From Candidatus Gorgyraea atricola (GTDB lineage Bacteria; Omnitrophota; Gorgyraeia; Gorgyraeales; Gorgyraeaceae): DNA of 64,000 nucleotides. The position numbers were made by a program, and so were the translations under genes. The DNA is taken from NCBI GenBank assembly GCA_030765235.1, contig JAVCCW010000010.1:94907-158906 (forward strand), read 5' to 3'. This document shows positions 50,152 through 64,000 of this stretch, in pieces. A model generated the notes under the pieces. That model worked only from the letters and a program-made list of their open reading frames with translations. It searched no databases and had not been told where the DNA came from. Numbering within the stretch: position 1 is the stretch's first letter; every line of letters begins with the position of its first letter.

Positions 50152-50236
50152 ATCGTTTAGCCCGTTAGCCCGTTGCCCGTTAGCCCGTTGACCCATTAAC
50201 GGGCAAACGGGCTAAACGGGCAACGGGCTAAACGGA
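50152..50236. repeat. Family D palindromic repeat (cccgttagcccgttgcccgtt.../...aacgggcaacgggctaaacgg)
   Basis: Half copy at 52413-52452. Confidence 0.85.
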
Positions 50237-52411: not shown

Positions 52412-52412
52412 T

Positions 52413-52452
52413 TTCCCGTTTCCCGTTAGCCCGTTGCCCGTTTAGCCCGTTA
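52413..52452. repeat. Family D half copy
   Basis: cccgtttcccgttagcccgttgcccgtttagcccgttac. Confidence 0.75.
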
Positions 52453-53190
52453 CAAAAATAATAGAGCTACTAGCCCAAGAATAATGCAATAAATGCCAAA
52501 CAGATGAAACTTATTCTTGTAAAGCACCCTTAATAACAATTTTAATGACAAAACACCAATAATGCAAGAAGTAATAAAGCCTATTAAATAAATCGGGCTA
52601 AATCCTGTCAAGGCCGGATCTTTTATCTTAAATAAGGCCGCGCCTATTATTGCGGGAATGGCTAATAAAAATGAAAATCTCGCGGCAGCCTGGCCATCGA
52701 GCCCCAGAAATAATCCCGTGGAAATAGTCACGCCGCTCCTTGATATGCCTGGCATAACTGCAATAGCCTGGGCCAGGCCTATCAAGATTGCCTTAAGGCC
52801 TGAAATACCACCAGAGCCGAATCTAAGAAAGCTCCCAAGGATAAGCCATATGCCGGTTACAACAAGCATTGCGCCGACCATCTTGACATTGCCAAATGCT
52901 GCTTCGATCCCTTTACCAAAAAACAATACGCATAATACAGTAACAGCAGTTGCCATTAAGATAAAGAAACCTATTTTTCTCTTAACAGTAACTGCCTCTA
53001 TTATATCTTTCCAAAATACTATGAATATAGCGGCCAGAGTACCAACATGCAGAAATATATCAAAACTAAGCTGCGGCCCTTCCATACCCATCAGCTTATG
53101 CATGATCACGAGATGACCCGAGCTGGAGACTGGAAGAAATTCAGTAAGGCCTTGGACTATGCCGGAGATTAAGGCTTGGAGGAAAGTCAT
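52450..53190 (-). CDS. uppP: undecaprenyl-diphosphate phosphatase
   Basis: GIVQGLTEFLPVSSSGHL N-terminal signature. Confidence 0.9.
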   Translation of the reverse strand: MTFLQALISGIVQGLTEFLPVSSSGHLVIMHKLMGMEGPQLSFDIFLHVGTLAAIFIVFWKDIIEAVTVKRKIGFFILMATAVTVLCVLFFGKGIEAAFGNVKMVGAMLVVTGIWLILGSFLRFGSGGISGLKAILIGLAQAIAVMPGISRSGVTISTGLFLGLDGQAAARFSFLLAIPAIIGAALFKIKDPALTGFSPIYLIGFITSCIIGVLSLKLLLRVLYKNKFHLFGIYCIILGLVALLFL

Positions 53191-53202
53191 ACTTTACAGC
53201 AA

Positions 53203-53272
53203 GAGGTTACGAAGGTTATGGAAGGTTATGTAACGTTCCATAACATTACGTAACATTCCATAACCTCCACGT
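53203..53272. repeat. Family B palindromic repeat copy (short)
   Basis: aagaggttacgaaggttatggaagg...cattccataacctcc. Confidence 0.85.
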
Positions 53273-53282
53273 ATTAAAACAC

Positions 53283-55358
53283 TTATTCCTGCGCCTGCTT
53301 AATACTCAAATTCAACCTACCCATATCATCTATCTTAATCAGCTTGACCTTGACCTTGTCGCCTACTTTTACAGCTTCCTCGACATTTTTGACAAACTTG
53401 CCTGCCAATTCAGATACATGGATCAGGCCTTCTTTTCCAGGGAAGATCTCGCAAAACGCGCCGAAATTCATAAGACGCGTGATCGTGCCCTCAAACACAG
53501 TGCCTATCTTGATATCACCTGCTATACCTTTTATGATCTCTATGGCCCTATCAATGGCTTCCTTGTTCTCAGACGCTACTGAAACCTTACCTTCATCTCC
53601 ATCCACCTCGATGGTCGCTCCTGTTTCCTGAATGATCCTCTTTATTACCTTTCCGCCTGGCCCTATTACCGCGCCGATCTTGTCCTTATTTATAGTGATC
53701 ATCTTTATCTTTGGCGCGTACTCAGAAAGTTCCTGCCGCGGCCCTTCCATTGCTTCCTTGATCTTATTCAAGATAAATGAACGCGCGGGTTTTGTCTGCG
53801 TCATAATCTTTTTTATTAATTCCAGGTCAATACCATCGATTTTCAGATCCATCTGGAGCGCTGTGACACCTACCTCAGTGCCTGTGACTTTAAAATCCAT
53901 ATCTCCAAAATGATCTTCAATGCCCGCGATATCAGTCAGGATCATGGCCTTGTCCCCATCTTTTACCAGACCCATGGCAATACCAGATACAGGTCTTTTT
54001 ATAGGTACGCCCGCGTCCATCAAAGAAAGCGTGCTCGCGCACACTGTTGCCATGCTGCTCGAACCATTTGACTCAAGTATCTCAGATACGATCCTTACTG
54101 TATAAGGAAATTCCTCAGCAGATGGCATCACTGCCTCAAGCGCCCTTGCTGCTAAAGCGCCATGCCCGATCTCACGCCTTCCAGGACCTCTTGCAGGCCT
54201 TGCCTCTCCCACGCTAAACGGAGGAAAGTTATAATGCAGCATAAAACTCTTGAACTTCTCGCCTTCCAGTGTATCAAGCCTCTGCTCATCATCGCCAGTG
54301 CCCAATGTCGTTACAGACAGACTCTGCGTCTGTCCTCTTGTGAATAACCCTGAGCCATGCGTCCTGGGCAGCACCCCGACTTCACACGTGATCTCCCTTA
54401 TGTCCTCACACTTCCTGCCATCTACTCTTTTCTTTTTTTCTAATATAAACTTGCGGACCTCTTCCTTCTCGATCTTCTCAAGCGCGCTCTTTATATCCGC
54501 GTCTTCTAAGGTCTCGTCCTGCGCCTTTAACTTTTCTATGACCTCTTTGCTCAGGATACTCAAAGCCTCTTCTCTCTGCTCCTTTATAGGAAGAGAGTTA
54601 ACTTTATTCAATCCTGACAGAGAAAGCTTTTTAACCTTCTCGCATAACTCATCTGAGACAAGCTTCAATTCAGGCTTGATCTTTTTCTTGCCTGCTTTTT
54701 TCTTTAATTCCTCTTGTAGTTCAATTGTCTCAGCTATGTATTTCTGGGCAAGCTCTATTGCCTCGACCATCTTTTCTTCTGATATCTCGCTTGCTCCTGC
54801 CTCGAGCATAACGATCTTGTCCTTCATGCCTACCGCGACCAGATTTAAAGCGCTGTTCTCCATCTCATCAAATGTAGGATTCACGATAAATTTATCTTCT
54901 ACTAATCCTATCCTCACAGCGCCCACAGGCCCTGCGAACGGTATATCTGAGATCGTCAATGCGGCTGAGGCGCCTATCAAGGCAGGTATGTCAGAATTAT
55001 TTTCTCCATCGCTTGAAAGCACTATTGCGAATATCTGCACGTCATTTAAAAACCCCTCTGGAAATAACGGCCTTATAGGCCTATCTATGAGCCTGGCGGT
55101 CAGGATCTCTTTTTCCGTAGGCCTTCCTTCTCTTTTGAAATATCCACCGGGTATCTTACCCGCAGCATATGTCTTTTCCTGGTATTCCACTGTAAGAGGG
55201 AAAAAGCCGATACCCTTCCTCTGTTCTTTTGAACTGACAGCAGTAGCCAGGACCATGGTATCTCCATACTGCACACACACAGAACCGCTTGCCTGCTTTG
55301 CCATTTTCCCGGTTTCAATAACTAAATTCTCTTTTCCTATCTTTCTTTCGACTTTCAT
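53283..55358 (-). CDS. pnp: polyribonucleotide nucleotidyltransferase (PNPase)
   Basis: 691 aa; two RNase PH domains, KH (..IGPGGKVIKRI..) and S1 domains. Confidence 0.97.
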   Translation of the reverse strand: MKVERKIGKENLVIETGKMAKQASGSVCVQYGDTMVLATAVSSKEQRKGIGFFPLTVEYQEKTYAAGKIPGGYFKREGRPTEKEILTARLIDRPIRPLFPEGFLNDVQIFAIVLSSDGENNSDIPALIGASAALTISDIPFAGPVGAVRIGLVEDKFIVNPTFDEMENSALNLVAVGMKDKIVMLEAGASEISEEKMVEAIELAQKYIAETIELQEELKKKAGKKKIKPELKLVSDELCEKVKKLSLSGLNKVNSLPIKEQREEALSILSKEVIEKLKAQDETLEDADIKSALEKIEKEEVRKFILEKKKRVDGRKCEDIREITCEVGVLPRTHGSGLFTRGQTQSLSVTTLGTGDDEQRLDTLEGEKFKSFMLHYNFPPFSVGEARPARGPGRREIGHGALAARALEAVMPSAEEFPYTVRIVSEILESNGSSSMATVCASTLSLMDAGVPIKRPVSGIAMGLVKDGDKAMILTDIAGIEDHFGDMDFKVTGTEVGVTALQMDLKIDGIDLELIKKIMTQTKPARSFILNKIKEAMEGPRQELSEYAPKIKMITINKDKIGAVIGPGGKVIKRIIQETGATIEVDGDEGKVSVASENKEAIDRAIEIIKGIAGDIKIGTVFEGTITRLMNFGAFCEIFPGKEGLIHVSELAGKFVKNVEEAVKVGDKVKVKLIKIDDMGRLNLSIKQAQE

Positions 55359-55381
55359 TGAAGACTCCCTTTCTTAGTTGT

Positions 55382-55450
55382 AGCTTTCAGCCCTCAACTC
55401 TCAGCTCTCAGCCTTAAAAGCTGAAAGCTGACAGCTGATCGCTGAAAGCT
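55382..55450. repeat. Family E palindromic repeat (agctttcagccctcaactctcagc.../...gctgacagctgatcgctgaaagct)
   Basis: Imperfect inverted repeat between pnp and rpsO. Confidence 0.8.
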
Positions 55451-55524
55451 ATCGTTATAATAAAAGCGGATCTGCCGACCCTAATTACCTGCTTAGCGAC
55501 CCAGGTCGTTAAATCCGCCCTTCA

Positions 55525-55794
55525 TTATTTCTTTAAGTTTAACTTTTTTACGAGCTCGCGATACTTGTCAGTATTTTCTCTTCTTAAATACTCCAAGAGT
55601 CTTTTTCTCTGACTGACCAAACGTAAAAGACCTACCCTGGAATGATAATCCTTCTTATGAGCTTTAAAATGCCCTGTAAGGTTATTAATCCTATTGGTAA
55701 GCAATGCTACCTGCACACTGCAGGAGCCTGTGTCTTTTTCGTGCTCAGCAAAATCCTTCACGATCCCTTGTTTTGCATCCTTCGCTAATACCAT
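55525..55794 (-). CDS. rpsO: 30S ribosomal protein S15
   Basis: 89 aa; ..[39 protein letters not shown].. Confidence 0.95.
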
Positions 55795-55821: not shown

Positions 55822-56772
55822 CTATTTTTTACCCCTGCGGTCAAGCAATTTCTTCACGACCAACATATATCCCAATATCTTTAACTCATATAATACTATA
55901 AAAGGTAGATTCAATAATATGCCACGTAATGAATCATTCTTTTTTATGCATAAGTATCTATTCTTAATATACCTTCTCTTCAACTCCTCAGAAATACGGT
56001 GGACTAGGGGTTGGGGTGTCCTGTGAGTGGGAGGATCCACACCGGGCGGAGGGGCCCACGAACAGGATACCCCGACCTCTAGTCCACCCGCAGTTCCCCC
56101 TCTCACATGATACGCTAGTGCCTTCGGGTTATAATATGCTTTCCAATCCTTCTTCTGTGCTCTCCAACATAAGTCTAGATCTTCGTAATACATGTCAAAT
56201 CTCTCGTCAAAATATCCATATTTATCCCTTACATTCTTCAGCATGCTTTTTCTTAAAAAAGCGCATGCGCCGCTGGCTCCAAATACATATCCTGGCTCAT
56301 CATACTGCCCCTTGTCTACCTTTCCATAGCCTCTCTCGACTGGCTTTCTATTCTTGCCTAAAAATAATCCTGTTGAATCTATGGTCTTTTTATCCATTCT
56401 TAATATTTTTCCGCTTACCATGCCGATTCGCGTATCAAGACCTATCGCCAATAGAACCTGCCTCAGATAATCTTTGTCCAACACGCAGTCGTTATTCAGG
56501 CATAAGACAAAATTCCCTTTTGACGCATCAATGCCCTGATTCTGCGCTTTACAAAAAAGAAGGTTGCTGGTATTTCTGATCAATTGAACATCCGAATAAT
56601 ACATGGCTACCATCTCGATACTGCCATCGGTAGAGGCATTATCTACAACAATAGTCTCAATATCCTGAAAATTCTGTCCCCTTACGGAGTCCAGACACTG
56701 CCTCAACAAATCTTTCCTGTTGTAATTGACAATTATTATTGATATCATAGATTTAATTATATCATGAATCAA
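55822..56772 (-). CDS. GT2 glycosyltransferase carrying an in-frame 93-nt GC-rich palindromic insertion
   Basis: N-terminal IIIVNYNRKDLL..VVDNASTDGS; C-terminal ..RRYIKNRYLCIKKNDSLRGILLNLPF.. is normal GT2 tail. Between them lies a foreign 31-aa segment AGGLEVGVSCSWAPPPGVDPPTHRTPQPLVH. Confidence 0.8.
   Translation of the reverse strand: MIHDIIKSMISIIIVNYNRKDLLRQCLDSVRGQNFQDIETIVVDNASTDGSIEMVAMYYSDVQLIRNTSNLLFCKAQNQGIDASKGNFVLCLNNDCVLDKDYLRQVLLAIGLDTRIGMVSGKILRMDKKTIDSTGLFLGKNRKPVERGYGKVDKGQYDEPGYVFGASGACAFLRKSMLKNVRDKYGYFDERFDMYYEDLDLCWRAQKKDWKAYYNPKALAYHVRGGTAGGLEVGVSCSWAPPPGVDPPTHRTPQPLVHRISEELKRRYIKNRYLCIKKNDSLRGILLNLPFIVLYELKILGYMLVVKKLLDRRGKK
55997..56089. repeat. GC-rich palindromic element inside GT2 CDS (arms cggtggactaggggttggggtgtcctgt / acaggataccccgacctctagtccaccc)
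   Basis: 93 nt = 31 codons; locally very GC-rich against an AT-rich host gene; reads through in frame. Confidence 0.85.
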
Positions 56773-57945
56773 ACAGAAACCAAACCCTTATCACCCCTCA
56801 TATTTATTCCCTTATTATCCCTTATCTTCATCCGGCCTTTCATCTCTGGCCTTGCATACCCGGCCTTTGAGATGTTTTATGAAAACATCTTGATATTCCT
56901 TGCTATCATGATCTTATTCATGGAAAGATCCAGATTTAAACTGTATCCTAAAAATTTCAGTAACTTCCCTGTAATATTCCTATTATTTGCCTATGCTATT
57001 TCAACTATATTCTCGATCAACATACAAAACTCTATTAGAGAAACGCTTAAATTCATCAGTTTCTTTGCCATATTCTTTATGGTTTCCCAATCTGATGAAA
57101 AACAAAAGAAACTGCTGCTAAAGACCATTGTCATAGCTGCTTCAATAATAAGTCTGTATTCAATATACCAGTACTTCTGGGGATATGGACGCACACTAGA
57201 TTATCTACAAAAAACCAACAGCGATTTTCTCTCCACCTCTTCCTATGCCCGCGACATCCTGCTCTCAAAACGCGCAATAGGAACATTTCCCTCTCCGAAT
57301 ATCTTAGCTGGATACTTGATAATAATGTTTTTTCTCGCAATGCACTTACAGCGTCGCATTTCGCTAGTTCTAATCACTGCTGCGTTAATCCTCACTAAAT
57401 CCATGGGCGCGTGGTTAAGTCTTATTGCTGCACTGATCTACCTCGGTAACTTCGTAAGTTACCCAAAGGGTAACTTACGAAGTTACCGAGGTAAGTTAAT
57501 GGCAGTATTAATCGTAGCTATACTATGTTTTATCCTCGTGAATCGCTGGGAACGCCTGATGAACATGGAAAACCCGCAAAATTCCATTACCCAGCGCCTA
57601 AACTACTGGCGCACAGCCATAGCCATAATAAAAGATCAGGCTATTTTTGGAGTCGGACCTGGTAATTTTCAAGAAGTCTTCTTGGGGCATAAGGTAGGCT
57701 TAGGCACAGATACAAGATACGCGCATAACATATTTCTTCACATATGGTCAGAAATAGGTATCTTAGGTCTTGTAGGAGTCTTTTACCTTATTATTAATTT
57801 TTTCAGAAAAGCCAGATCTCAATCCAGCTATAGATTTATACTGTGCGGCGGGCTTGTGTTTATCCTGCATAATCTCATAGATAATACCTTTTTCATGCCT
57901 CAAGCTGCACTCTTCTGGTGGATATTACTGGCTTCTAAGGAATAG
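56764..57945 (+). CDS. O-antigen ligase/polymerase family membrane protein (Wzy_C domain)
   Basis: 393 aa polytopic membrane protein. Contains in-frame perfect palindrome at 57441-57491. Confidence 0.7.
   Translation: MNQTETKPLSPLIFIPLLSLIFIRPFISGLAYPAFEMFYENILIFLAIMILFMERSRFKLYPKNFSNFPVIFLLFAYAISTIFSINIQNSIRETLKFISFFAIFFMVSQSDEKQKKLLLKTIVIAASIISLYSIYQYFWGYGRTLDYLQKTNSDFLSTSSYARDILLSKRAIGTFPSPNILAGYLIIMFFLAMHLQRRISLVLITAALILTKSMGAWLSLIAALIYLGNFVSYPKGNLRSYRGKLMAVLIVAILCFILVNRWERLMNMENPQNSITQRLNYWRTAIAIIKDQAIFGVGPGNFQEVFLGHKVGLGTDTRYAHNIFLHIWSEIGILGLVGVFYLIINFFRKARSQSSYRFILCGGLVFILHNLIDNTFFMPQAALFWWILLASKE
57441..57491. repeat. Perfect 24-bp-arm palindrome inside O-antigen ligase CDS (cctcggtaacttcgtaagttaccc-aaa-gggtaacttacgaagttaccgagg)
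   Basis: 51 nt = 17 codons encoding LGNFVSYPKGNLRSYRG; words ttacgaag/cttcgtaa relate it to family B. Confidence 0.85.
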
Positions 57946-59603
57946 ACCCTATCCACGGCCATAAGTGTCGATGATCTATGAGAAACAGTAATCAGGCTTA
58001 TTTCTCCAAGGAGCTGTTTTATATTCAATAATATCTTTTCCTCGCTGGCTGAATCCACAGAAGACATTGCCTCATCAAGGATCAGGATCCTGGGCCTTTT
58101 AATTATTGCACGGGCAATGGCGATCCTTTGCTTTTGTCCTTCTGATATCTTGCAGGCATTTTCACCTATAACCGTTTCATATCCATCAGGAAGATTATTT
58201 ATAAAATCATCGGCCAAAGAATGCCTGGCGGCCTCACATATCTCAGCCCTACTCGCGTTCTTTTTTCCATAGGCAATATTGTTCGCTACAGTATCGTTGA
58301 ACAAAAAAGGTTCCTGCAATGCCATGCCGATCTGTTCTTTTAGGCTCCCCATCTTCATGTCCTTGATATTGACACCATCAATAAGGATCTCTCCCTGCCA
58401 TGGATCATAAAGCCTTACGATTAAATTCAATAATGTGGTCTTGCCAGCGCCTGAAGGCGCAAAAAAACCAATATGCTTATTGCCTTCTATTGAAAAACTT
58501 AGATCCTTTAGGATAGGCTTGCCCGGCATATATCCAAAGCTAACGTTTTTAAATTGTATATTGCCTTGACTGAAAACAATGTTTCTTGCGCCTTTGTCCT
58601 CAATGACCATCCCTTCTTCATCTAAAATAGCAGCCACCCTTTGACAGGAGATAAGCCCCAATACAGCTGTTTGAAAAAATCCTACAAAGCTATTCTGCAT
58701 AGCTACTAGCTGCCCCAGGTAGACCAATATCGCTGCAAGACTTCCAAGACTCATTTCTCCCCTGATAACCATATATCCGCCGTAAAAACTAATAAGGCCT
58801 ATAATGATCTTACTCCCCGCATTCGCGGCAAAAGCGCCAAAGATATCCAGCCTTACACTGCTAAGCTCTATCTTTATATTGTCCATCAACTGCCTCAGGT
58901 ATTTCTTCGTCTCGACATTTTCTTTATTAAATACCTTAATAAGAGGGATGTGAGAAAAAAGCTCCTGAATGGATTTAAAAATATTCTGAGAATTCCCGAT
59001 CAATCTTTCCCAGACCTTCCTTCTTTTATTGATAAAATAATATGACGGTAAATAGAGGAAGGGTGTGAGAAAAAAAGCGAGGACTGCAATCCTCCAGTTA
59101 AGATGCGATATAATAATAAGGATAAGCACAAGTTTAGGAAAAAGGGCTATGGCCCGAGGAAGCGTAGTCGCAACAAGATCTTTTACCCTGCTAATATCGT
59201 GATCGATCTTATAAAGATGCTCCCCTGTGCTTTTATTTTGAAACCAGCTAAGCGGAAGGATCTCTATCTTTTTAAAAACCTTCTTGTTTAGATCAAATTT
59301 TATTCTTAATTTTACATATCTCTCTAAATATTGCCCGAACCCGTTTATAATTCCTATAACAATAAAAACTGCCCCGCCTATGATTACCAGAATGACAAAG
59401 GTCTTTAAATCCTTATTTCCTATTGCCTTATCAACGACTAATTTTGTCAAATACGGATTGATCAGCCCCAGCAATGCCCCAAAACCACTCAGGAAGATAA
59501 TTGCTGCCCATTTTTCTCTATAAGGCAAGAGTAATTTTATAAATCTTAAGAAAAGCGCCTGCTGTTTCTTGTCTAATCTTATTTTATGCCGGGAAAAATT
59601 CAT
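57900..59603 (-). CDS. ABC exporter, fused permease + ATPase (no C39 peptidase domain)
   Basis: 567 aa; 6 TM helices then Walker A GAGKTTL, LSGGQRQR, Walker B ILDEA. Confidence 0.85.
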   Translation of the reverse strand: MNFSRHKIRLDKKQQALFLRFIKLLLPYREKWAAIIFLSGFGALLGLINPYLTKLVVDKAIGNKDLKTFVILVIIGGAVFIVIGIINGFGQYLERYVKLRIKFDLNKKVFKKIEILPLSWFQNKSTGEHLYKIDHDISRVKDLVATTLPRAIALFPKLVLILIIISHLNWRIAVLAFFLTPFLYLPSYYFINKRRKVWERLIGNSQNIFKSIQELFSHIPLIKVFNKENVETKKYLRQLMDNIKIELSSVRLDIFGAFAANAGSKIIIGLISFYGGYMVIRGEMSLGSLAAILVYLGQLVAMQNSFVGFFQTAVLGLISCQRVAAILDEEGMVIEDKGARNIVFSQGNIQFKNVSFGYMPGKPILKDLSFSIEGNKHIGFFAPSGAGKTTLLNLIVRLYDPWQGEILIDGVNIKDMKMGSLKEQIGMALQEPFLFNDTVANNIAYGKKNASRAEICEAARHSLADDFINNLPDGYETVIGENACKISEGQKQRIAIARAIIKRPRILILDEAMSSVDSASEEKILLNIKQLLGEISLITVSHRSSTLMAVDRVYSLEASNIHQKSAA

Positions 59604-59605
59604 AT

Positions 59606-60760
59606 CTATTTTTTAGATGTCCTTTTGAATGTCTCAAGCGATGCAGCGCGGGCATGGGCTACTTCGCAAAAATAATCTACCGGCTTATCTAATTCTCCTG
59701 TCTCTAAATGAGCGTGTGCTGGACACCAGGTACAGAGATTGATGATAGGGCAGATCCGGCATTTCTTCAAAAAATCTTCTCTTTTTGAGCGTTTATCCCT
59801 CACCCGAAGGACAAAATTCCGATATGCTTCAAGTAATGTCCCATTCTTAAGGTCATAGACACAATCCGGATGCCAGAGCGAAGAGCAAAGTCGGAAAAAA
59901 CCGTCATAGCTTACCGCAAAACTGCCGTTGCCTGCGCCGCAATGAAAGAGATGATCACAGTTAGTGTGAGCAAAATCAGGGTCAATGAACTTGCCGCAAG
60001 ATTCTTCTAATGCCTTGAAACGTTCTGAGTCATTTTTTTCAATTGAAACTATCTCTTCAGGAAGAAGCCGCTCGGATCTTATTTCTTTATTTCTTCCTGT
60101 ATCACCGTCAAAACGAAGATGCAAAAACGGATCAAAACGGAAATAATCCTTGGTCTTTTGCCTGCAAAATTGAGAAATAACAGTTAATTCATGGATGTTT
60201 GAACGCAGGGCCATTGTCTTAAGGCGCACCTTGATCTTGTTTTTGAGCAGAAGATCTAAGCCTTTCATAAAAGCATTGAAGGAGCCTGGATTTCTGGTTA
60301 CCTTCTCATAGGTTCCTTTAGTCGCGCCGTATACTGTTACTTCAATGTTGCGCGGCGGGTACCTTTTGAAAAATTTAATGTGTCTTTCTGTTATCAATGT
60401 AGCGTTAGTAAAAACCGAGACTAAAAGGCCTTTTTTCTTGAGATGCAGATATATATCAAAAAAATCTTCCCTTAAAAGAGGTTCGCCTCCTGTAATCAGG
60501 CACCACAATGCTCCTAAATCAGCTGCCTCGTCAATGATATTCTTTATCTGCTGAAACTTGAGCTCTTTTGATTTCGCGCAAGAATCTCCTGCTGGTAAAT
60601 TTATATAGCAGTGTCTGCAATTATTGTTACAGCGCGCGGCAATCTCTAAGTCAAAAGAGATAAGCTGCCTATTATTCTTCATCTTGTTCCAAAGGGAAAA
60701 CCGAGGCAAGGAAACTCGGGACACAAAAGATCTTTTCATGATATCAAACTCTTGATCCAA
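59606..60760 (-). CDS. radical SAM/SPASM-domain peptide maturase (paralog 1)
   Basis: CNNNCRHC (Cx3Cx2C), GGEPLL, C-terminal Cys-rich SPASM region ..CRICPIINLCTWCPAHAH.. Confidence 0.85.
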   Translation of the reverse strand: MDQEFDIMKRSFVSRVSLPRFSLWNKMKNNRQLISFDLEIAARCNNNCRHCYINLPAGDSCAKSKELKFQQIKNIIDEAADLGALWCLITGGEPLLREDFFDIYLHLKKKGLLVSVFTNATLITERHIKFFKRYPPRNIEVTVYGATKGTYEKVTRNPGSFNAFMKGLDLLLKNKIKVRLKTMALRSNIHELTVISQFCRQKTKDYFRFDPFLHLRFDGDTGRNKEIRSERLLPEEIVSIEKNDSERFKALEESCGKFIDPDFAHTNCDHLFHCGAGNGSFAVSYDGFFRLCSSLWHPDCVYDLKNGTLLEAYRNFVLRVRDKRSKREDFLKKCRICPIINLCTWCPAHAHLETGELDKPVDYFCEVAHARAASLETFKRTSKK

Positions 60761-61224
60761 AAAATAAAAGATAATAATCTTGTCTTGCTCAAAAAAGCAA
60801 TTATAAACCGTTCCAGGCCAAAACCAAGTTGAGTTTTCCTGCCTGCCCTTTCTACTTTCGACACAACGCCTAAAATGTCCTTCATTGGAATCAAACCGTC
60901 AGTCTCAACAGAGTTATCTCCTTTTATAAGATAATAATCGCCTTTTTTACCTACTACTCTATGAATAACAAGCCTCCCTGTCTGAGCGTGGATAAAAGCT
61001 ACTGGCTTACCAAAACCTATTGGATGATCAAGCAGCGGGGAAATAGTAACTACATCGCCATTTTTAATAAACGGTGACATGCTAAAACCCATAGCCTTAA
61101 ACCTAAAAGGAATTCTCATGCCAGTGGCAGCTTGAAGCAATCCAGTCATTGCTTCCCCTGAAAGAGAAAGTTCTTCTTCAGGAACTACGCAATATCCTGC
61201 TTTAATCTCGCTTGACTTCAACAA
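60736..61224 (-). CDS. S24/S26-family serine peptidase (candidate leader peptidase)
   Basis: 162 aa; GFSMSPFIKNGDVVTI resembles the catalytic Ser region of signal peptidase I / LexA-like peptidases. Confidence 0.6.
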   Translation of the reverse strand: MLKSSEIKAGYCVVPEEELSLSGEAMTGLLQAATGMRIPFRFKAMGFSMSPFIKNGDVVTISPLLDHPIGFGKPVAFIHAQTGRLVIHRVVGKKGDYYLIKGDNSVETDGLIPMKDILGVVSKVERAGRKTQLGFGLERFIIAFLSKTRLLSFIFWIKSLIS

Positions 61225-61504
61225 GCATTCTCCTTTTGAGTAATTCTTCGACCAGCCCTAATACATCTTTTTCTATTTCTATCTTAGATGATTCAAATTC
61301 TGCCCCCAGATCATCCGCTAAATCTTTTAAGCTTTTTTTTCCATCTATCCTGCGCCAAATTGCCTGTCCGGTCTCATTGAGACTAAATATCGCATCTTCT
61401 AAATCCGCTACCCCTGAAGTTATGGGAATAATAATAAACTCTCCTTGTATCTCTCGCGCGACTATATCTTCAGACGGTTTATAAACACTTTCGATGTGGC
61501 CCAT
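61202..61504 (-). CDS. PqqD-family peptide chaperone (RiPP recognition element)
   Basis: 100 aa; ..LNETGQAIWRRIDGKKSLKDLADDLGAEF.. typical PqqD fold signature. Confidence 0.8.
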   Translation of the reverse strand: MGHIESVYKPSEDIVAREIQGEFIIIPITSGVADLEDAIFSLNETGQAIWRRIDGKKSLKDLADDLGAEFESSKIEIEKDVLGLVEELLKRRMLVEVKRD

Positions 61505-61525
61505 AAATACCTCCTTCGTTTTCGG

Positions 61526-62698
61526 TTATTTTGTAAATTTCCTGATCCGATCCTTCCCGTCCTTGATCTCCCATGCCATTTCACCTTCTTTTATCAGGCC
61601 CAGAAATCTTGCCTGAGCATGGGCAATTTCACAATAATATTCTACCGGCGTATCTAAGGTGCCGCTTTCTAAGCAGGATTTTGCAGGACATTGCGCGCAC
61701 AGGCCTTTTAAAAAACATTTAGCACAGCGATTTAAATAATCAGGATTGATAGCTTTTATCTCTCTTACTTTTGGAAAAAAATTAATCAGCGCATCTTTAA
61801 GAGAACCCTTTTTAAGATCATAGACTGTCTCCTTCTGTCTAAGCAACATACAGGGCTGAAACATACCATAAGCATCCACGCATCCGCTGGCACGGCCGGC
61901 CCCGCAGGAAAAAAGTCTATCACCAGATGGCCGCATAAATTTTGAGCAAAATTCTTTCATATTATTAAGGTATCTATTTTTTTGGCGGGTAAGAACTCTA
62001 AGTCCCTGCTCTGGCGTAACTCTGAGTTTTTTAATTGATTCATTTTTCCGACTATCATACCTGCGCCGCAGGTTAAAAAACATAGAATAAGGCGGCGATT
62101 TGCCTATCCATGGAATATTTTTAGCCCATTTCTCGAATTCATCGATTTCATCTTTGTTAGGCGGCAGTAACGAGCTTTTCACTATAAAAGGGGTCTTTTT
62201 CTCCAGTAGTAAATTTATGCCCCGCCAGGCCGCTTCAAATGAACCGGAAACCCTGGTTACGCCTTCATACGAGGCCTTTCTCATCCCGTAAACTGTAACC
62301 TCCACTTTTTCTAAGGGCGGGATATGACTCAATAGATCAGCTAATTTAGACGTAATCAAAGTGGCATTGGTAAAAAGCAATACCTTTAAACCAAGCTTCC
62401 TCGCGAAAACATATAATTCCTCAAAATCATCCCTTAAAAGCGGCTCCCCTCCTGTAAACCGTACTGTAAGGCAATCCAGAGAAACTGCTTCCTTGAGAAT
62501 ATTTTTTATCTGACTAGTAGATAACTCTTTATCTTTGGCATTCAAATCACCTTCCGGCAGATTTATGCAGCAGTGAATACAGTTATTATTACAGCGTTCG
62601 GTAAGTTCTATATCCAAACTACCTAAAACTGGCATGCTATTCTTCCACAATAAAGCTTTACTTGTTTCCTGTTTTTTAACGTAAAGACTGCTCTTCAT
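61526..62698 (-). CDS. radical SAM/SPASM-domain peptide maturase (paralog 2)
   Basis: CNNNCIHC, GGEPLL, SPASM Cys cluster ..CAKCFLKGLCAQCPAKS..; paralogous to 59606-60760. Confidence 0.85.
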   Translation of the reverse strand: MKSSLYVKKQETSKALLWKNSMPVLGSLDIELTERCNNNCIHCCINLPEGDLNAKDKELSTSQIKNILKEAVSLDCLTVRFTGGEPLLRDDFEELYVFARKLGLKVLLFTNATLITSKLADLLSHIPPLEKVEVTVYGMRKASYEGVTRVSGSFEAAWRGINLLLEKKTPFIVKSSLLPPNKDEIDEFEKWAKNIPWIGKSPPYSMFFNLRRRYDSRKNESIKKLRVTPEQGLRVLTRQKNRYLNNMKEFCSKFMRPSGDRLFSCGAGRASGCVDAYGMFQPCMLLRQKETVYDLKKGSLKDALINFFPKVREIKAINPDYLNRCAKCFLKGLCAQCPAKSCLESGTLDTPVEYYCEIAHAQARFLGLIKEGEMAWEIKDGKDRIRKFTK

Positions 62699-62721
62699 TT
62701 GCTTATAAATTCCTTACATGA

Positions 62722-62913
62722 CTAAGAAGTTACATTCCCATCACAGTCAGCACAAACTTCCGGCATCTTACAAACGCTGTATGCTGTGCCTGCGAAGATG
62801 CTACTCTCTTCATCCTTTTCCTTGCAAGCTATCAGAACACCCTCCTCTGGTTTGCCTCTCATCAGCACAATCAGTTTTGGTCTCTCCCATTTTTTCTTCG
62901 CTTCTCTCTTCAT
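62722..62913 (-). CDS. RiPP precursor peptide B (leader MKREAKKKWERPKLIVL..GKPEEGVL; 4-Cys core ending -VTS)
   Basis: GGAGG 5 nt upstream of ATG 62913 (ORF track starts 12 nt earlier at 62925); immediately upstream of the rSAM gene; paralog of the 62959-63150 peptide. Confidence 0.75.
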   Translation of the reverse strand: MKREAKKKWERPKLIVLMRGKPEEGVLIACKEKDEESSIFAGTAYSVCKMPEVCADCDGNVTS

Positions 62914-62958
62914 TTTTACCTCCAATAAGTGCTAATAGTAAGGGAACAAGAACTATGG

Positions 62959-63150
62959 TCACGACGTCACAAGGACGTCACACCTCAGGTTAGCGCATAG
63001 ATCCACTCTAAAACATGATGCAAACGCGTTATCAGGGCCGATCATGCCGGGAAAAGTCTTGCAGCTCTGCAACACCCACTCTTCAGGTTTCCCTTTGGTT
63101 AAAATAATCAGCTTCGGCTTTTCCCATTTTTTCTTAGCTTCTTTCTTCAT
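62959..63150 (-). CDS. RiPP precursor peptide A (leader MKKEAKKKWEKPKLIIL..GKPEEWVL; 4-Cys core ending -VTS)
   Basis: Conserved leader with peptide B at protein and DNA level; alternative upstream start at 63174. Confidence 0.75.
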   Translation of the reverse strand: MKKEAKKKWEKPKLIILTKGKPEEWVLQSCKTFPGMIGPDNAFASCFRVDLCANLRCDVLVTS

Positions 63151-63180
63151 CTTTACCGCTTCCTCTGCATCCAACCTGCT

Positions 63181-64000
63181 CTACATCTGCCTCAAGGCAT
63201 CCACTATTTCTCCGCTTTTGTCAAAACGTAGAACATAAACAGGGACTCTTGCGGCTAAATTATCTATAACCAACAATGTCTTCTCCCACCAATCTACAGT
63301 TACAAATGGCCTTATCAAACAAGATAAGAGTTTTCTCACTATCTCTTTCTTGTCCTCAATACGCAAAATTTTATTTTCCAATGACTTCTCCAGAAAGAAA
63401 ATAGCTTTCAGCGCAGCAGAATTACTTGAGATATCAGGTATATCGCCGTGACTCCACGTCCCATAGATCCTAAACTTGCCTGCTTTTCTTCTTACGATCA
63501 TCCTGTCATCGCAAAGTATCTCGGCTTTTCCTTTTAACATTGTTGCCATTGTAGACTTACCTGCTTCAGAGTGCCCGGCAAAAAGCAGGCCCTTGCCTTC
63601 AAAATTAACACCGCAGGAATGCAAATAGCAGCCTTCTCTATCAGCTAAAATTCTTGCAAAGAGTATCTGATCAGTAGGGAACATAGTCAGAGAGTGCAGA
63701 TTCCCTCTTAAGAACATTTCTTTCTTATCGTTATAGATCCTGGCCCTGGTATGGCCTGAGTTAAATGTCGCAACGCAATGTGGACTTTTTCTATTCCCAT
63801 CTGGATAAATAACCCCAGAATAAATCCATGAGCCGTTATTTTTATATATTGCCCAAGGGGACCTGCAGTAAACCTCTTCGCCAAAATTCCTGCCGTTTAA
63901 ATCCGGCAGAGAAAAATGATGCCGGATATAAATAGTATCTTCTCTATGTCCATCAACCTCAAATTTTTTGAATTTGGAATGGAATGTTTGCTCATTTATC
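63181..64000 (-). CDS. HPr-kinase-like P-loop kinase (open reading frame continues beyond right window edge)
   Basis: GHSEAGKST P-loop resembling the HprK C-domain GxSGxGKS; the frame stays open upstream of the first Met to the window end, so the N-terminus is probably outside the window. Confidence 0.65.
   Translation of the reverse strand, partial: INEQTFHSKFKKFEVDGHREDTIYIRHHFSLPDLNGRNFGEEVYCRSPWAIYKNNGSWIYSGVIYPDGNRKSPHCVATFNSGHTRARIYNDKKEMFLRGNLHSLTMFPTDQILFARILADREGCYLHSCGVNFEGKGLLFAGHSEAGKSTMATMLKGKAEILCDDRMIVRRKAGKFRIYGTWSHGDIPDISSNSAALKAIFFLEKSLENKILRIEDKKEIVRKLLSCLIRPFVTVDWWEKTLLVIDNLAARVPVYVLRFDKSGEIVDALRQM

What the first reader, a model, noticed from the sequence alone, without database searches (positions are those of the whole stretch)
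62722..63174. Tandem paralogous precursor peptides with a conserved leader and 4-Cys cores of identical length
The peptides align as MK(K/R)EAKKKWE(K/R)PKLI(I/V)L(T/M)(K/R)GKPEE(W/G)VL. Both are followed by a 36-residue core with Cys at core positions 3, 19/21, 25/27 and 30, and both end in VTS. The leader is conserved while the core diverges, which is the hallmark of RiPP precursors. One Cys-rich substrate per rSAM paralog is plausible. I do not recognise the KKKWExPKL leader from known families (SCIFF, subtilosin, thuricin, streptide, mycofactocin, PQQ).
Basis: seen in the sequence. Interest (0 to 1): 0.85.

Follow-up and report, generated by a model that had tools for sequence, protein, structure and literature searches.

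The report
Unnamed four-cysteine peptide precursors, radical-SAM cluster
Two neighbouring 63-codon genes encode precursors of a large, so far unnamed family of modified peptides that always sits beside the same set of peptide-modifying enzymes, pointing to an uncharacterised natural-product pathway common in uncultivated anaerobic bacteria.

Summary
Two 63-aa ORFs on the minus strand (63150-62959 and 62913-62722) share a conserved leader and a divergent four-Cys core ending in VTS. They are real genes: an exhaustive profile search finds 2,772 cluster representatives of about 60 aa. The family shares an invariant leader (KKW-x-KP-x-LIVL-x-RG-x-PEE-x-VL-x-x-CK) and a rigid core scaffold, C-K-x14-19-C-x4-8-C-x2-3-C-x5-[S/T]-COOH. 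Of 245 unique cores, 98% end in Ser or Thr and in 93% the last Cys is exactly 6 residues from the end. The peptides co-occur with three orthologous radical-SAM/SPASM enzymes, a PqqD-type peptide-binding protein, a signal-peptidase-like protease, an ABC exporter, an HPr-kinase-fold protein (ScmC-like) and often a nucleotidyltransferase. Peptide copy number varies from 1 to 4 while the three radical-SAM genes stay constant, so "one substrate per paralog" is not supported. No NCBIfam or Pfam model hits the peptide, every public copy is "hypothetical protein", and I found no paper on it. The nearest catalogued system, the SynChlorMet cassette, is missed by wide margins on all four curated models. 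Best reading: a new rSAM-modified RiPP family. Inferred, not shown: Cys cross-linking and kinase action on the C-terminal Ser/Thr.

The parts
62959..63150 (-). Precursor peptide A (63 aa + stop): MKKEAKKKWEKPKLIILTKGKPEEWVLQS|CKTFPGMIGPDNAFASCFRVDLCANLRCDVLVTS. Leader about 29 aa; core 34 aa counted from the invariant Cys-Lys.
   Evidence: ORF and translation. Identical 63-aa product in NCBI/JGI (P0001; L003). Family profile hit at 73 bits. GAGGA 10-11 nt upstream of the ATG, at 63161-63165.
62722..62913 (-). Precursor peptide B (63 aa + stop): MKREAKKKWERPKLIVLMRGKPEEGVLIA|CKEKDEESSIFAGTAYSVCKMPEVCADCDGNVTS.
   Evidence: P0002 was called as a 63-aa gene on three independent contigs. GGAGG at 62919-62923 with a 5-nt spacer. 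Against the L008 orthologue, leader dN/dS is about 0.13.
63181..64000 (-). ScmC-like HPr-kinase/PEPCK-fold P-loop domain (272 aa visible; the gene runs off the window end). In the closest relative L008, and in L004, L011, L014, L018, L024 and L026, this domain is the C-terminal half of a roughly 650-aa rSAM/SPASM::ScmC fusion (rSAM group C).
61526..62698 (-). Radical SAM/SPASM enzyme, orthologue group A (390 aa).
   Evidence: PF04055 at 1.1e-18. CNNNCIHC and SPASM-type CAKCFLKGLCAQC motifs. Best PDB relatives are SkfB, BlsE and PqqE. Orthologues lie next to the peptides in every adequately long locus.
61202..61504 (-). PqqD-family protein (100 aa), the presumed leader-binding RiPP recognition element.
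   Evidence: PF05402 at 2.4e-15. Weak full-length match to the lasso PqqD chaperone NF033536 at 9e-7. Natural PqqD::precursor fusions P0063 and P0059.
60736..61224 (-). S24/S26-type peptidase (162 aa), ER/archaeal signal-peptidase-I-like; the presumed leader peptidase.
   Evidence: TIGR02228 at 33 bits here, and 55.6 bits (above the 51.85 cutoff) for the L004 orthologue. Invariant GxSMxP Ser, HR His, KGD and D across 8 orthologues.
59606..60760 (-). Radical SAM/SPASM enzyme, orthologue group B (384 aa).
   Evidence: PF04055 at 8e-21. CNNNCRHC and CRICPIINLCTWC motifs. Conserved partner across loci.
57900..59603 (-). ABC exporter (567 aa; permease + ATPase, no C39 peptidase domain).
   Evidence: PF00664 and PF00005. 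An ABC partner is present in L004, L014, L016, L020, L022 and L024.

Best explanation
The two ORFs are tandem precursor genes of a large, unnamed family of ribosomally synthesised, post-translationally modified peptides (RiPPs). Proposed pathway, with the status of each step marked. (1) The invariant leader (W-x-x-P-x-L...RG-x-PEE-x-VL) is bound by the PqqD-type recognition protein. This is inferred, and is supported by strict co-occurrence and two natural PqqD::precursor fusions. (2) Three distinct radical-SAM/SPASM enzymes act on the same peptide. They most likely turn some or all of the four invariant cysteines into thioether (sacti- or ranthi-type) cross-links. This is inferred from enzyme class and the Cys scaffold; the chemistry is not shown. 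(3) The ScmC-like HPr-kinase-fold domain, usually fused to the third rSAM enzyme, acts on the invariant C-terminal Ser/Thr, most likely by O-phosphorylation. This is by analogy with the HprK-type kinases PadeK and PsmK, which phosphorylate the C-terminal Ser of lasso precursors. Where an NTP_transf_5 gene is present, a further sugar may be added on the phosphate, as with PsmN. All of this is inferred. (4) A Ser/His signal-peptidase-like protease removes the leader, probably at L-x-[A/G/S/T]|C-K, which fits the -3/-1 rule. This is inferred. (5) The ABC transporter exports the product, which is also inferred. Hypervariable cores, multiple precursor copies and a dedicated exporter suggest a secreted bioactive peptide, such as a bacteriocin or signal, and not a cofactor.
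For: The family is real and large: 2,772 representatives at E <= 1e-3 and 1,933 90%-identity clusters. The leader is near-invariant: W 100%, P 99%, L 97%, EE 89/99%, L 99%, C 100%, K 99%. Core scaffold on 245 unique cores: 98% end in S/T, 90% have 4 Cys, 93% have the last Cys 6 residues from the end, and the last Cys pair is CxxC or CxxxC. The two clear exceptions to the S/T rule (P0006, P0110) carry the canonical C-x5-S internally and look like read-through. Co-occurrence: the window plus L004, L008, L014, L016, L018, L020, L024 and L026 all carry rSAM groups A and B, PqqD and ScmC. The S24-like peptidase was detected in all of these except L020. NTP_transf_5 is present in 8 distinct loci. 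The taxa include Omnitrophota, Planctomycetia and Chloroflexi. All three rSAMs have CxxxCxxC and a SPASM Cys motif. ScmC-like domain: invariant Walker A and LCDDR, confident model, HprK/P and PEPCK as the top folds. Precedent for an HprK-type kinase acting on a RiPP C-terminal Ser, the DD-motif mutant, and the NTase-dependent hexose: PMC6993621. Position -1 before the invariant Cys is A/G/T/S in 79% of peptides and -3 is Leu in 99%. Peptidase catalytic residues are invariant. PqqD::precursor fusions. Selection pattern: leader constrained, core free.
Against: There is no chemical, proteomic or expression evidence; everything beyond gene content is inference. None of the three rSAMs reaches the threshold of any characterised maturase family, so thioether formation is only the commonest precedent for Cys-rich substrates. 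The four Cys could instead form disulfides or bind metal. ScmC has never been assayed, and its similarity to lasso kinases is at superfamily level only. The Chloroflexi locus L022 has peptides ending in Ser but no ScmC within 14.5 kb, although that cluster is interrupted by an IS66 element. One orphan copy sits in a Smithella MAG with no partner genes nearby. Co-occurrence was examined in about a dozen loci, not across all 2,772 representatives. The window does not show the N-terminal part of the ScmC gene or whether an NTP_transf_5 gene lies upstream.
Confidence: 0.7

Rival explanations
1. The peptides are precursors of an intracellular redox cofactor or other small molecule excised from the peptide, as with PQQ or mycofactocin. 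Those pathways also use PqqD plus an rSAM/SPASM enzyme and a peptidase.
For: PqqD scores 40 bits against the PQQ PqqD model, whose cutoff is 46. The rSAMs hit MftC and PqqE models at 60-100 bits. A strictly conserved C-terminal residue recalls the C-terminal Val-Tyr of MftA (own knowledge).
Against: Cofactor precursors have conserved cores. Here the core is hypervariable apart from the Cys positions and the last residue. There are 1-4 divergent copies per locus and a dedicated ABC exporter in the operon. All MftC and PqqE scores are far below cutoff.
Confidence: 0.07
2. The mature product is a metal-binding or disulfide-rich peptide. The four cysteines stay as thiol or disulfide ligands, and the rSAM enzymes perform other chemistry such as epimerisation, C-C cross-links or methylation. 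Cleavage would expose an N-terminal Cys, as the related S26 protease SodX exposes the His-Cys nickel hook of NiSOD.
For: Four invariant Cys include a terminal CxxC or CxxxC pair. The peptidase has a weak hit to the NiSOD maturation protease model at E = 2e-4. The predicted cleavage site would leave Cys at the N-terminus. The rSAMs fit no thioether-synthase family model.
Against: rSAM/SPASM enzymes paired with Cys-rich RiPP substrates most often make thioethers; the best PDB relative is the sactisynthase SkfB. No metal-handling genes are seen in the clusters. Three separate rSAM enzymes are hard to explain if the Cys residues are left untouched.
Confidence: 0.13
3. The ScmC-like domain does not phosphorylate the C-terminal Ser/Thr. 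It might be a scaffold or nucleotide-dependent chaperone for the fused rSAM enzyme, or it might phosphorylate Ser/Thr only as a leaving group for dehydration followed by Cys addition (lanthionine-like). The C-terminal Ser/Thr would then be conserved for another reason, such as serving as an rSAM cross-link acceptor at a fixed distance from the last Cys.
For: The C-x5-[S/T] spacing is as rigid as the residue identity, which suggests a ring or ruler involving the last Cys. ScmC is physically fused to an rSAM enzyme in most loci. Class III/IV lanthipeptide synthetases use phosphorylation and elimination (own knowledge).
Against: Walker A and the DD catalytic motif are invariant across 63 diverse homologues, which argues for real phosphotransfer. 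The only characterised RiPP-associated HprK homologues phosphorylate exactly a C-terminal Ser and leave the phosphate on (PMC6993621). The same NTP_transf_5 partner that decorates that phosphate recurs here. No lyase gene is seen.
Confidence: 0.3
4. The ORFs are chance open frames or remnants of a decayed gene and are not translated.
For: They are short, have no database annotation beyond 'hypothetical protein', and there are no expression data.
Against: There are thousands of homologues with the same length and scaffold. Synonymous differences far exceed non-synonymous ones in the leader. Both have Shine-Dalgarno sequences, conserved synteny, and independent gene calls on other contigs.
Confidence: 0.01

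Closest known systems
SynChlorMet (SCM) cassette: NCBIfam TIGR04248 ScmD, TIGR04249 ScmC, TIGR04250 ScmE, TIGR04251 ScmF; Pfam PF27840 ScmC
   Same: Same parts list: PqqD-like protein, HprK-like ScmC protein and multiple PqqE-like rSAM/SPASM enzymes. The ScmC models are the best hits for the window's kinase-fold gene, and its homologues carry precomputed PF27840.
   Different: All four curated equivalog models are missed by wide margins: ScmC 35.7 against a cutoff of 125, ScmD 27.5 against 100, ScmE 86.7 against 400, ScmF 77.9 against 400. This system has three rSAM groups, one usually fused to ScmC, plus a signal-peptidase-like protease, an ABC exporter and NTP_transf_5. From my own memory of the TIGRFAMs text (not checked here), no precursor peptide was assigned to SCM. 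No paper on it exists in the searched library.
Sactipeptides and ranthipeptides (subtilosin/AlbA, SkfA/SkfB, thuricin, freyrasin/PapB, SCIFF)
   Same: Cys-containing core, rSAM/SPASM maturase with an RRE, leader-dependent processing and a dedicated exporter. SkfB is the best solved relative of rSAM group A.
   Different: No maturase model is reached: PapB 55-61 against 340, AlbA 45-50 against 850, StsB 73-78 against 625. The peptide matches no SCIFF or other precursor model. Known systems use one or two maturases, not three distinct ones. A rigid C-x5-[S/T]-COOH tail and an HprK-fold partner are unknown in these classes, as far as the held literature shows.
Phosphorylated lasso peptides (paeninodin PadeK; pseudomycoidin PsmK + PsmN)
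   Same: A stand-alone PqqD-type RRE, an HprK-family kinase with the DD motif, an 'uncharacterised nucleotidyltransferase' partner and a precursor ending in Ser (PMC6993621). The leader contains W-x-x-P-x-L, the same spacing as the lasso Y-x-x-P-x-L motif (own knowledge). There are faint hits to a lasso leader model (E = 0.047) and to the lasso PqqD model (E = 9e-7).
   Different: No lasso cyclase (Asn-synthetase-like) or B2 transglutaminase-type protease is present in the window cluster or in any related locus. rSAM/SPASM enzymes and an S26-type peptidase take their place. The spacing from Leu to Gly differs (+6 against +4), and there is no penultimate Thr.
PQQ and mycofactocin pathways (PqqA/D/E; MftA/B/C)
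   Same: A small precursor, a PqqD-type chaperone and an rSAM/SPASM enzyme. The C-terminal residue of the precursor matters.
   Different: The core is hypervariable and multi-copy, an exporter is present, and all equivalog scores are far below cutoff.

Membership tests
RiPP precursor peptide (generic definition) | Short ORF with a conserved N-terminal leader and a variable C-terminal core | tested here: met
   Leader positions are 97-100% conserved and core positions are variable except for Cys and the last residue. Leader dN/dS is about 0.13 and core dN/dS is 1 or more.
RiPP precursor peptide (generic definition) | Conserved adjacency to modifying enzymes, a recognition element, a protease and an exporter | tested here: met
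   The same gene set occurs in the window and in L004, L008, L014, L016, L018, L020, L024 and L026. PqqD::precursor fusions exist.
RiPP precursor peptide (generic definition) | The peptide is translated and post-translationally modified | not testable with these tools
   No expression or mass-spectrometry data are available.
SynChlorMet cassette (NCBIfam equivalogs) | ScmC (TIGR04249) at or above 125 bits | tested here: not met
   35.7 bits for the window fragment and 32-49 bits for full-length homologues; only the kinase core aligns, profile positions 120-230 of 292.
SynChlorMet cassette (NCBIfam equivalogs) | ScmD (TIGR04248) at or above 100 bits; ScmE and ScmF (TIGR04250, TIGR04251) at or above 400 bits | tested here: not met
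   ScmD 27.5 bits. ScmE 74-88 bits and ScmF 68-102 bits for the three rSAM groups.
Pfam ScmC (PF27840) | Match to the Pfam ScmC model | tested here: met
   All 120 listed homologues of the window's domain, and the fusion genes in L004, L024 and L026, carry a precomputed PF27840 hit. The local Pfam copy lacks this model, so the window fragment itself was not scored.
Sactipeptide / ranthipeptide | rSAM enzyme with CxxxCxxC and a SPASM auxiliary-cluster motif, plus a Cys-containing core | tested here: met
   The motifs are present in all three rSAM groups. Four Cys occur in 90% of cores.
Sactipeptide / ranthipeptide | Maturase belongs to a characterised thioether-synthase family (AlbA, StsB, PapB, SCIFF maturase) | tested here: not met
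   All scores are 5- to 20-fold below the curated cutoffs.
Sactipeptide / ranthipeptide | Cys sulfur linked to C-alpha, C-beta or C-gamma thioether bonds in the product | not testable with these tools
   Needs MS/MS or NMR.
SCIFF, subtilosin, thuricin, streptide, mycofactocin and PQQ precursors | Match to the precursor family model | tested here: not met
   No NCBIfam or Pfam hit for either peptide at E <= 1, apart from a sub-threshold lasso leader hit.
Lasso peptide | Asn-synthetase-like cyclase (C) and transglutaminase-like protease (B2) in the cluster | tested here: not met
   Absent from the window cluster and from all related loci with Pfam annotation.
Lasso peptide | Leader motif Y-x-x-P-x-L-x3-G-x5-T-x and a match to a lasso precursor model | tested here: inconclusive
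   W-x-x-P-x-L is present with the same spacing, but the Gly offset differs and there is no penultimate Thr. NF033534 scores 13.4 bits against a cutoff of 30.
HprK-type RiPP kinase (PadeK/PsmK-like) | HprK/PEPCK-like P-loop fold with Walker A and the DD catalytic/metal motif | tested here: met
HprK-type RiPP kinase (PadeK/PsmK-like) | Phosphorylates the side chain of the precursor's C-terminal Ser | not testable with these tools
   Only the prerequisite is shown: 98% of cores end in Ser or Thr.
ER/archaeal-type signal peptidase I (S26B, Sec11/SipW-like) | TIGR02228 at or above 51.85 bits, with Ser/His/Asp catalytic residues | tested here: inconclusive
   The window protein scores 33.4 bits (below cutoff) and the L004 orthologue 55.6 bits (above). 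Ser (GxSMxP), His (HR) and Asp residues are invariant.

The most novel reading that the evidence does not exclude
This is the precursor family of a new RiPP class that is widespread in uncultivated, mostly anaerobic phyla (Omnitrophota, Planctomycetota, Chloroflexota, Desulfobacterota, and judging from the ScmC partners also Aminicenantes, Poribacteria and Eremiobacterota). In it, a lasso-type leader, RRE, HprK-kinase and nucleotidyltransferase module has been combined with three dedicated rSAM/SPASM enzymes and a signal-peptidase-type leader protease. The product would be a multiply cross-linked four-Cys peptide carrying an O-phospho- or phosphoglycosyl-Ser/Thr at its C-terminus. It would also supply the long-missing substrate type for ScmC/SynChlorMet-like cassettes.
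Probability: 0.35. Interest if true: 0.8.

Novelty: new variant of a known kind. Interest (0 to 1): 0.62.

Why it matters
If correct, it defines a very large precursor family that no annotation resource currently names: thousands of sequence clusters across several phyla that have almost no cultured members. It gives a concrete, testable substrate for three uncharacterised rSAM/SPASM enzyme groups and for the ScmC (PF27840) HPr-kinase-fold family, which has more than 1,300 clusters all annotated "hypothetical". The rigid C-x5-[S/T]-COOH tail next to a kinase fused to an rSAM enzyme predicts a modification combination (radical cross-linking plus C-terminal phosphorylation) not described for any rSAM RiPP in the literature I could search. 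It also suggests an evolutionary link between lasso-peptide tailoring modules and rSAM RiPP pathways. In practice, the profile built here would let genome-mining tools call these clusters and their precursors.

Tried and rejected
1. Chance or decayed ORFs were rejected.
2. Membership of the SynChlorMet cassette was rejected at the curated-model level, although it remains the nearest catalogued architecture.
3. Lasso peptide was rejected because no cyclase or B2 protease is present. The leader hit to 'rhodolasso' is sub-threshold.
4. 'One precursor per rSAM paralog' was rejected by the copy-number comparison.
5. Sequence search of the ScmC domain against the PDB gave nothing significant (HprK E = 0.69). 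The fold comparison was needed.
6. The broad 70-sequence peptide alignment was too diverse for the locus finder, so the 8-sequence alignment was used and reaches only close relatives.
7. Literature searches all found nothing on this system: SynChlorMet; ScmC with radical SAM; HprK with SPASM; HPr kinase with radical SAM and precursor peptide; ranthipeptide with kinase; and the leader motif strings themselves. Papers mentioning Omnitrophota RiPPs discuss only generic BGC counts.
8. The promoter/terminator scan of 57700-64000 was not above shuffled expectation and gave no operon boundaries.
9. The rSAM next to the PqqD::precursor fusion in L028 is unrelated to groups A-C, so that locus says nothing about the enzymes.
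Full report
**1. What is there**

The window's last 6 kb carries a compact minus-strand operon. In order of transcription:
- a gene that runs off the window edge, of which 272 codons are visible (63999-63184);
- two 63-codon ORFs, pepA (63150-62959) and pepB (62913-62722);
- a 390-aa radical SAM enzyme (62698-61526);
- a 100-aa PqqD-family protein (61504-61202);
- a 162-aa S24/S26-type peptidase (61224-60736);
- a 384-aa radical SAM enzyme (60760-59606);
- a 567-aa ABC exporter (59603-57900).

Intergenic gaps are 23-45 nt or the genes overlap. pepB has GGAGG 5 nt before its ATG, and pepA has GAGGA 10-11 nt before its ATG. BLASTP between the two peptides gives E = 5e-18. The window comes from a Candidatus Gorgyraea atricola MAG (Omnitrophota). 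There both peptides are annotated as hypothetical proteins P9L93_02760 and P9L93_02755.

**2. The peptides are real and belong to a very large family**

A word-indexed search found six further homologues. A profile of these eight, scored against every one of 1.84 billion representative proteins, gave 2,772 hits at E <= 1e-3 and 284 at E <= 1e-10, almost all 55-75 aa long. A second search with a 70-member profile found 1,933 90%-identity clusters.

Leader consensus, numbered from the invariant Cys as position 0:

| Position | Residue (frequency) |
|---|---|
| -24 to -22 | K-K-K |
| -21 | W (100%) |
| -18 | P (99%) |
| -16 | L (97%) |
| -13 | L (97%) |
| -11 / -10 | R / G |
| -8 | P |
| -7 / -6 | E / E (99%) |
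| -4 | V |
| -3 | L (99%) |
| -1 | small residue (A/G/T/S, 79%) |
| 0 | C (100%) |
| +1 | K (99%) |

On 245 unique cores:
- 98% end in Ser (206) or Thr (35);
- 90% contain exactly four Cys;
- in 93% the last Cys lies exactly six residues from the C-terminus;
- the last two Cys are spaced CxxC (153) or CxxxC (57);
- the first-to-second Cys spacing peaks at 16.

The two clear exceptions to the S/T rule (P0006, P0110) contain the canonical C-x5-S followed by extra residues, so they look like read-through.

Selection analysis agrees. Between the paralogues, the leader has pS = 0.87 and pN = 0.16. Against the L008 orthologue, leader dN/dS is about 0.13 and core dN/dS is 1 or more. For pepA the core is almost saturated at non-synonymous sites while the Cys residues and the terminal Ser are retained.

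**3. Conserved partners**

I fetched contigs carrying homologues. I searched their six-frame ORFs with the window's proteins and the peptide HMM.

Apart from the IS66-interrupted L022 (described below), every locus with enough flank carries the following (window, L004, L008, L014, L016, L018, L020, L024, L026):
- rSAM group A, the orthologue of the 390-aa gene;
- rSAM group B, the orthologue of the 384-aa gene;
- PqqD;
- a ScmC-like domain, either fused to the C-terminus of a third rSAM/SPASM enzyme (group C, about 650 aa) or encoded next to it.

The S24-like peptidase was found in all of these except L020, where my search detected none. Most loci also have an ABC exporter. A PF14907 'NTP_transf_5' nucleotidyltransferase is present in eight distinct loci (L004, L012, L014, L018, L020, L022, L024, L026).

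In the closest relative, L008, the gene upstream of the two peptides is such an rSAM::ScmC fusion, and its ScmC half aligns with the window's truncated gene. The window gene is therefore very probably also a fusion.

Peptide gene number is 1 (L004, L016, L020), 2 (window, L008), 3 (L014, L024) or 4 (L018). The three rSAM groups stay constant throughout. This contradicts "one substrate per rSAM paralog" and suggests that three enzymes act on each peptide.

Taxa named in the records include Omnitrophota, Planctomycetia, Smithella, other Deltaproteobacteria and Chloroflexi. For the ScmC partner they also include Aminicenantes, Poribacteria, Thermodesulfobacteriota and Eremiobacterota.

Exceptions:
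- a Chloroflexi locus interrupted by an IS66 element lacks ScmC and rSAM C within reach;
- a Smithella contig holds an orphan peptide with no partner genes nearby.

**4. What the partners are**

- **rSAM enzymes.** All three have CxxxCxxC and a C-x2-C-x5-C-x2-C SPASM-type motif. They hit many rSAM/SPASM models at 50-130 bits (AhbD, NirJ, MftC, ScmE/F, StsB, PapB, AlbA, PqqE), always far below the curated cutoffs. The best solved relative of group A is the sactisynthase SkfB.
- **PqqD.** The protein matches PF05402 and, weakly but over its full length, a lasso PqqD chaperone model. Two database proteins are natural PqqD::precursor fusions with different Glu/Lys-rich linkers. P0063 is verified as an intact ORF in NCBI assembly GCA_030640885.1, and P0059 is N-terminally truncated. 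This is Rosetta-stone support for the PqqD-leader pairing.
- **Peptidase.** It has invariant GxSMxP Ser, HR His, KGD and Asp residues. Its L004 orthologue passes the archaeal/ER-type signal peptidase I model. Small residues at -1 and Leu at -3 before the invariant Cys fit a signal-peptidase-type site. The site itself is an inference.
- **ABC transporter.** It has no C39 peptidase domain, consistent with a separate leader protease.

**5. How it most likely works**

Shown:
- gene content, conservation and co-occurrence;
- the catalytic motifs;
- the kinase fold.

Inferred:
- PqqD binds the leader;
- the three rSAM/SPASM enzymes modify the four-Cys core, with thioether cross-links as the most common precedent;
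- the HprK-fold domain acts on the invariant C-terminal Ser/Thr;
- the signal-peptidase-like enzyme removes the leader before Cys-Lys;
- the ABC transporter exports the product.

The kinase inference rests on a specific precedent. In the paeninodin and pseudomycoidin lasso clusters, HprK-family kinases (PadeK, PsmK) phosphorylate the side chain of the precursor's C-terminal Ser. A DD-to-AA mutant of PsmK is inactive. PsmN, an 'uncharacterised nucleotidyltransferase', adds hexose to that phosphate (PMC6993621). The present family has the same three ingredients: a C-terminal Ser/Thr, an HprK-fold protein with a DD motif, and NTP_transf_5. It also has a stand-alone PqqD and a W-x-x-P-x-L leader motif with the spacing of the lasso Y-x-x-P-x-L motif (the lasso motif is from my own knowledge). 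It has no lasso cyclase or B2 protease.

The rigid six-residue distance between the last Cys and the terminus, and the fusion of ScmC to an rSAM enzyme, leave open that the tail takes part in a ring. They also leave open that phosphorylation serves another purpose (see the rival explanations).

**6. Comparison with known systems and novelty**

The nearest catalogued architecture is the SynChlorMet cassette. All four of its curated models are missed by three- to five-fold in score, so I do not file this as a member. It is a member of the broader Pfam ScmC family through its kinase-fold domain.

It works like a sacti- or ranthipeptide pathway in outline, but it reaches no maturase or precursor model. 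Neither peptide hits any NCBIfam (June 2026) or Pfam model above noise. All public copies are unnamed. Nine literature searches, including one for the motif strings themselves, found no description. The searched library excludes most subscription-journal papers, so a prior bioinformatic mention cannot be excluded.

I rate it a new variant of a known kind: an rSAM/SPASM RiPP with an undescribed precursor family and an unusual enzyme ensemble. Interest is moderate to high because of the family's size, its rigid scaffold and the predicted radical-plus-kinase chemistry. It is tempered by the complete lack of chemical evidence.

Noticed in passing
window 56764-57945 (+) and 55822-56772 (-); L016 7508-8053; L006 8736-10001; L004 12178-13938; L026 5203-6690 and 10628-11968: Membrane glycosyltransferase-type genes recur right beside these peptide clusters. 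A Wzy_C/O-antigen-ligase-like gene is convergent with the ABC exporter in the window and in L016, and overlaps the peptide start in L006. PMT_2 overlaps cluster genes in L004 and L026. GT1 and GT2 genes are also present. This may reflect glycosylation of the exported peptide, or only Omnitrophota synteny.
   Followed up: partly
L028 237-848 (P0063, NCBI GCA_030640885.1); P0059: Natural fusions of PqqD to a precursor peptide through Glu/Lys-rich linkers. The rSAM gene downstream in L028 is unrelated to the cluster's rSAM groups.
   Followed up: yes
P0009 (180 aa): A single ORF carries two complete leader-plus-core units in tandem. It could be a genuine double precursor or a gene-calling merge in a high-GC organism.
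   Followed up: no
L022/L023 2708-4180 and 7997-8549: In a Chloroflexi version of the cluster, an IS66-family transposase and a BrnT/BrnA toxin-antitoxin pair sit inside the operon. A SAM-dependent methyltransferase is also present, and no ScmC or rSAM group C is within reach.
   Followed up: partly
L018 3258-12070: One Omnitrophota locus has four divergent precursor genes and duplicated PqqD and S24-like modules, but still one copy of each rSAM group.
   Followed up: partly
L004 9687-9863: A 58-aa '23S rRNA intervening sequence protein'-like gene is inserted between rSAM group A and the precursor gene.
   Followed up: no
L019 9998-10165 (Smithella MAG): An orphan family member (ends in S, 4 Cys) has no recognisable partner genes within 10 kb upstream or 3 kb downstream. 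It lies directly after a 1,033-aa ORF.
   Followed up: partly
window 50228-55794: The cluster sits in ordinary chromosomal context: FtsK-like translocase, undecaprenyl-diphosphatase-like membrane protein, polynucleotide phosphorylase and ribosomal protein S15. These were judged from their translations only.
   Followed up: no
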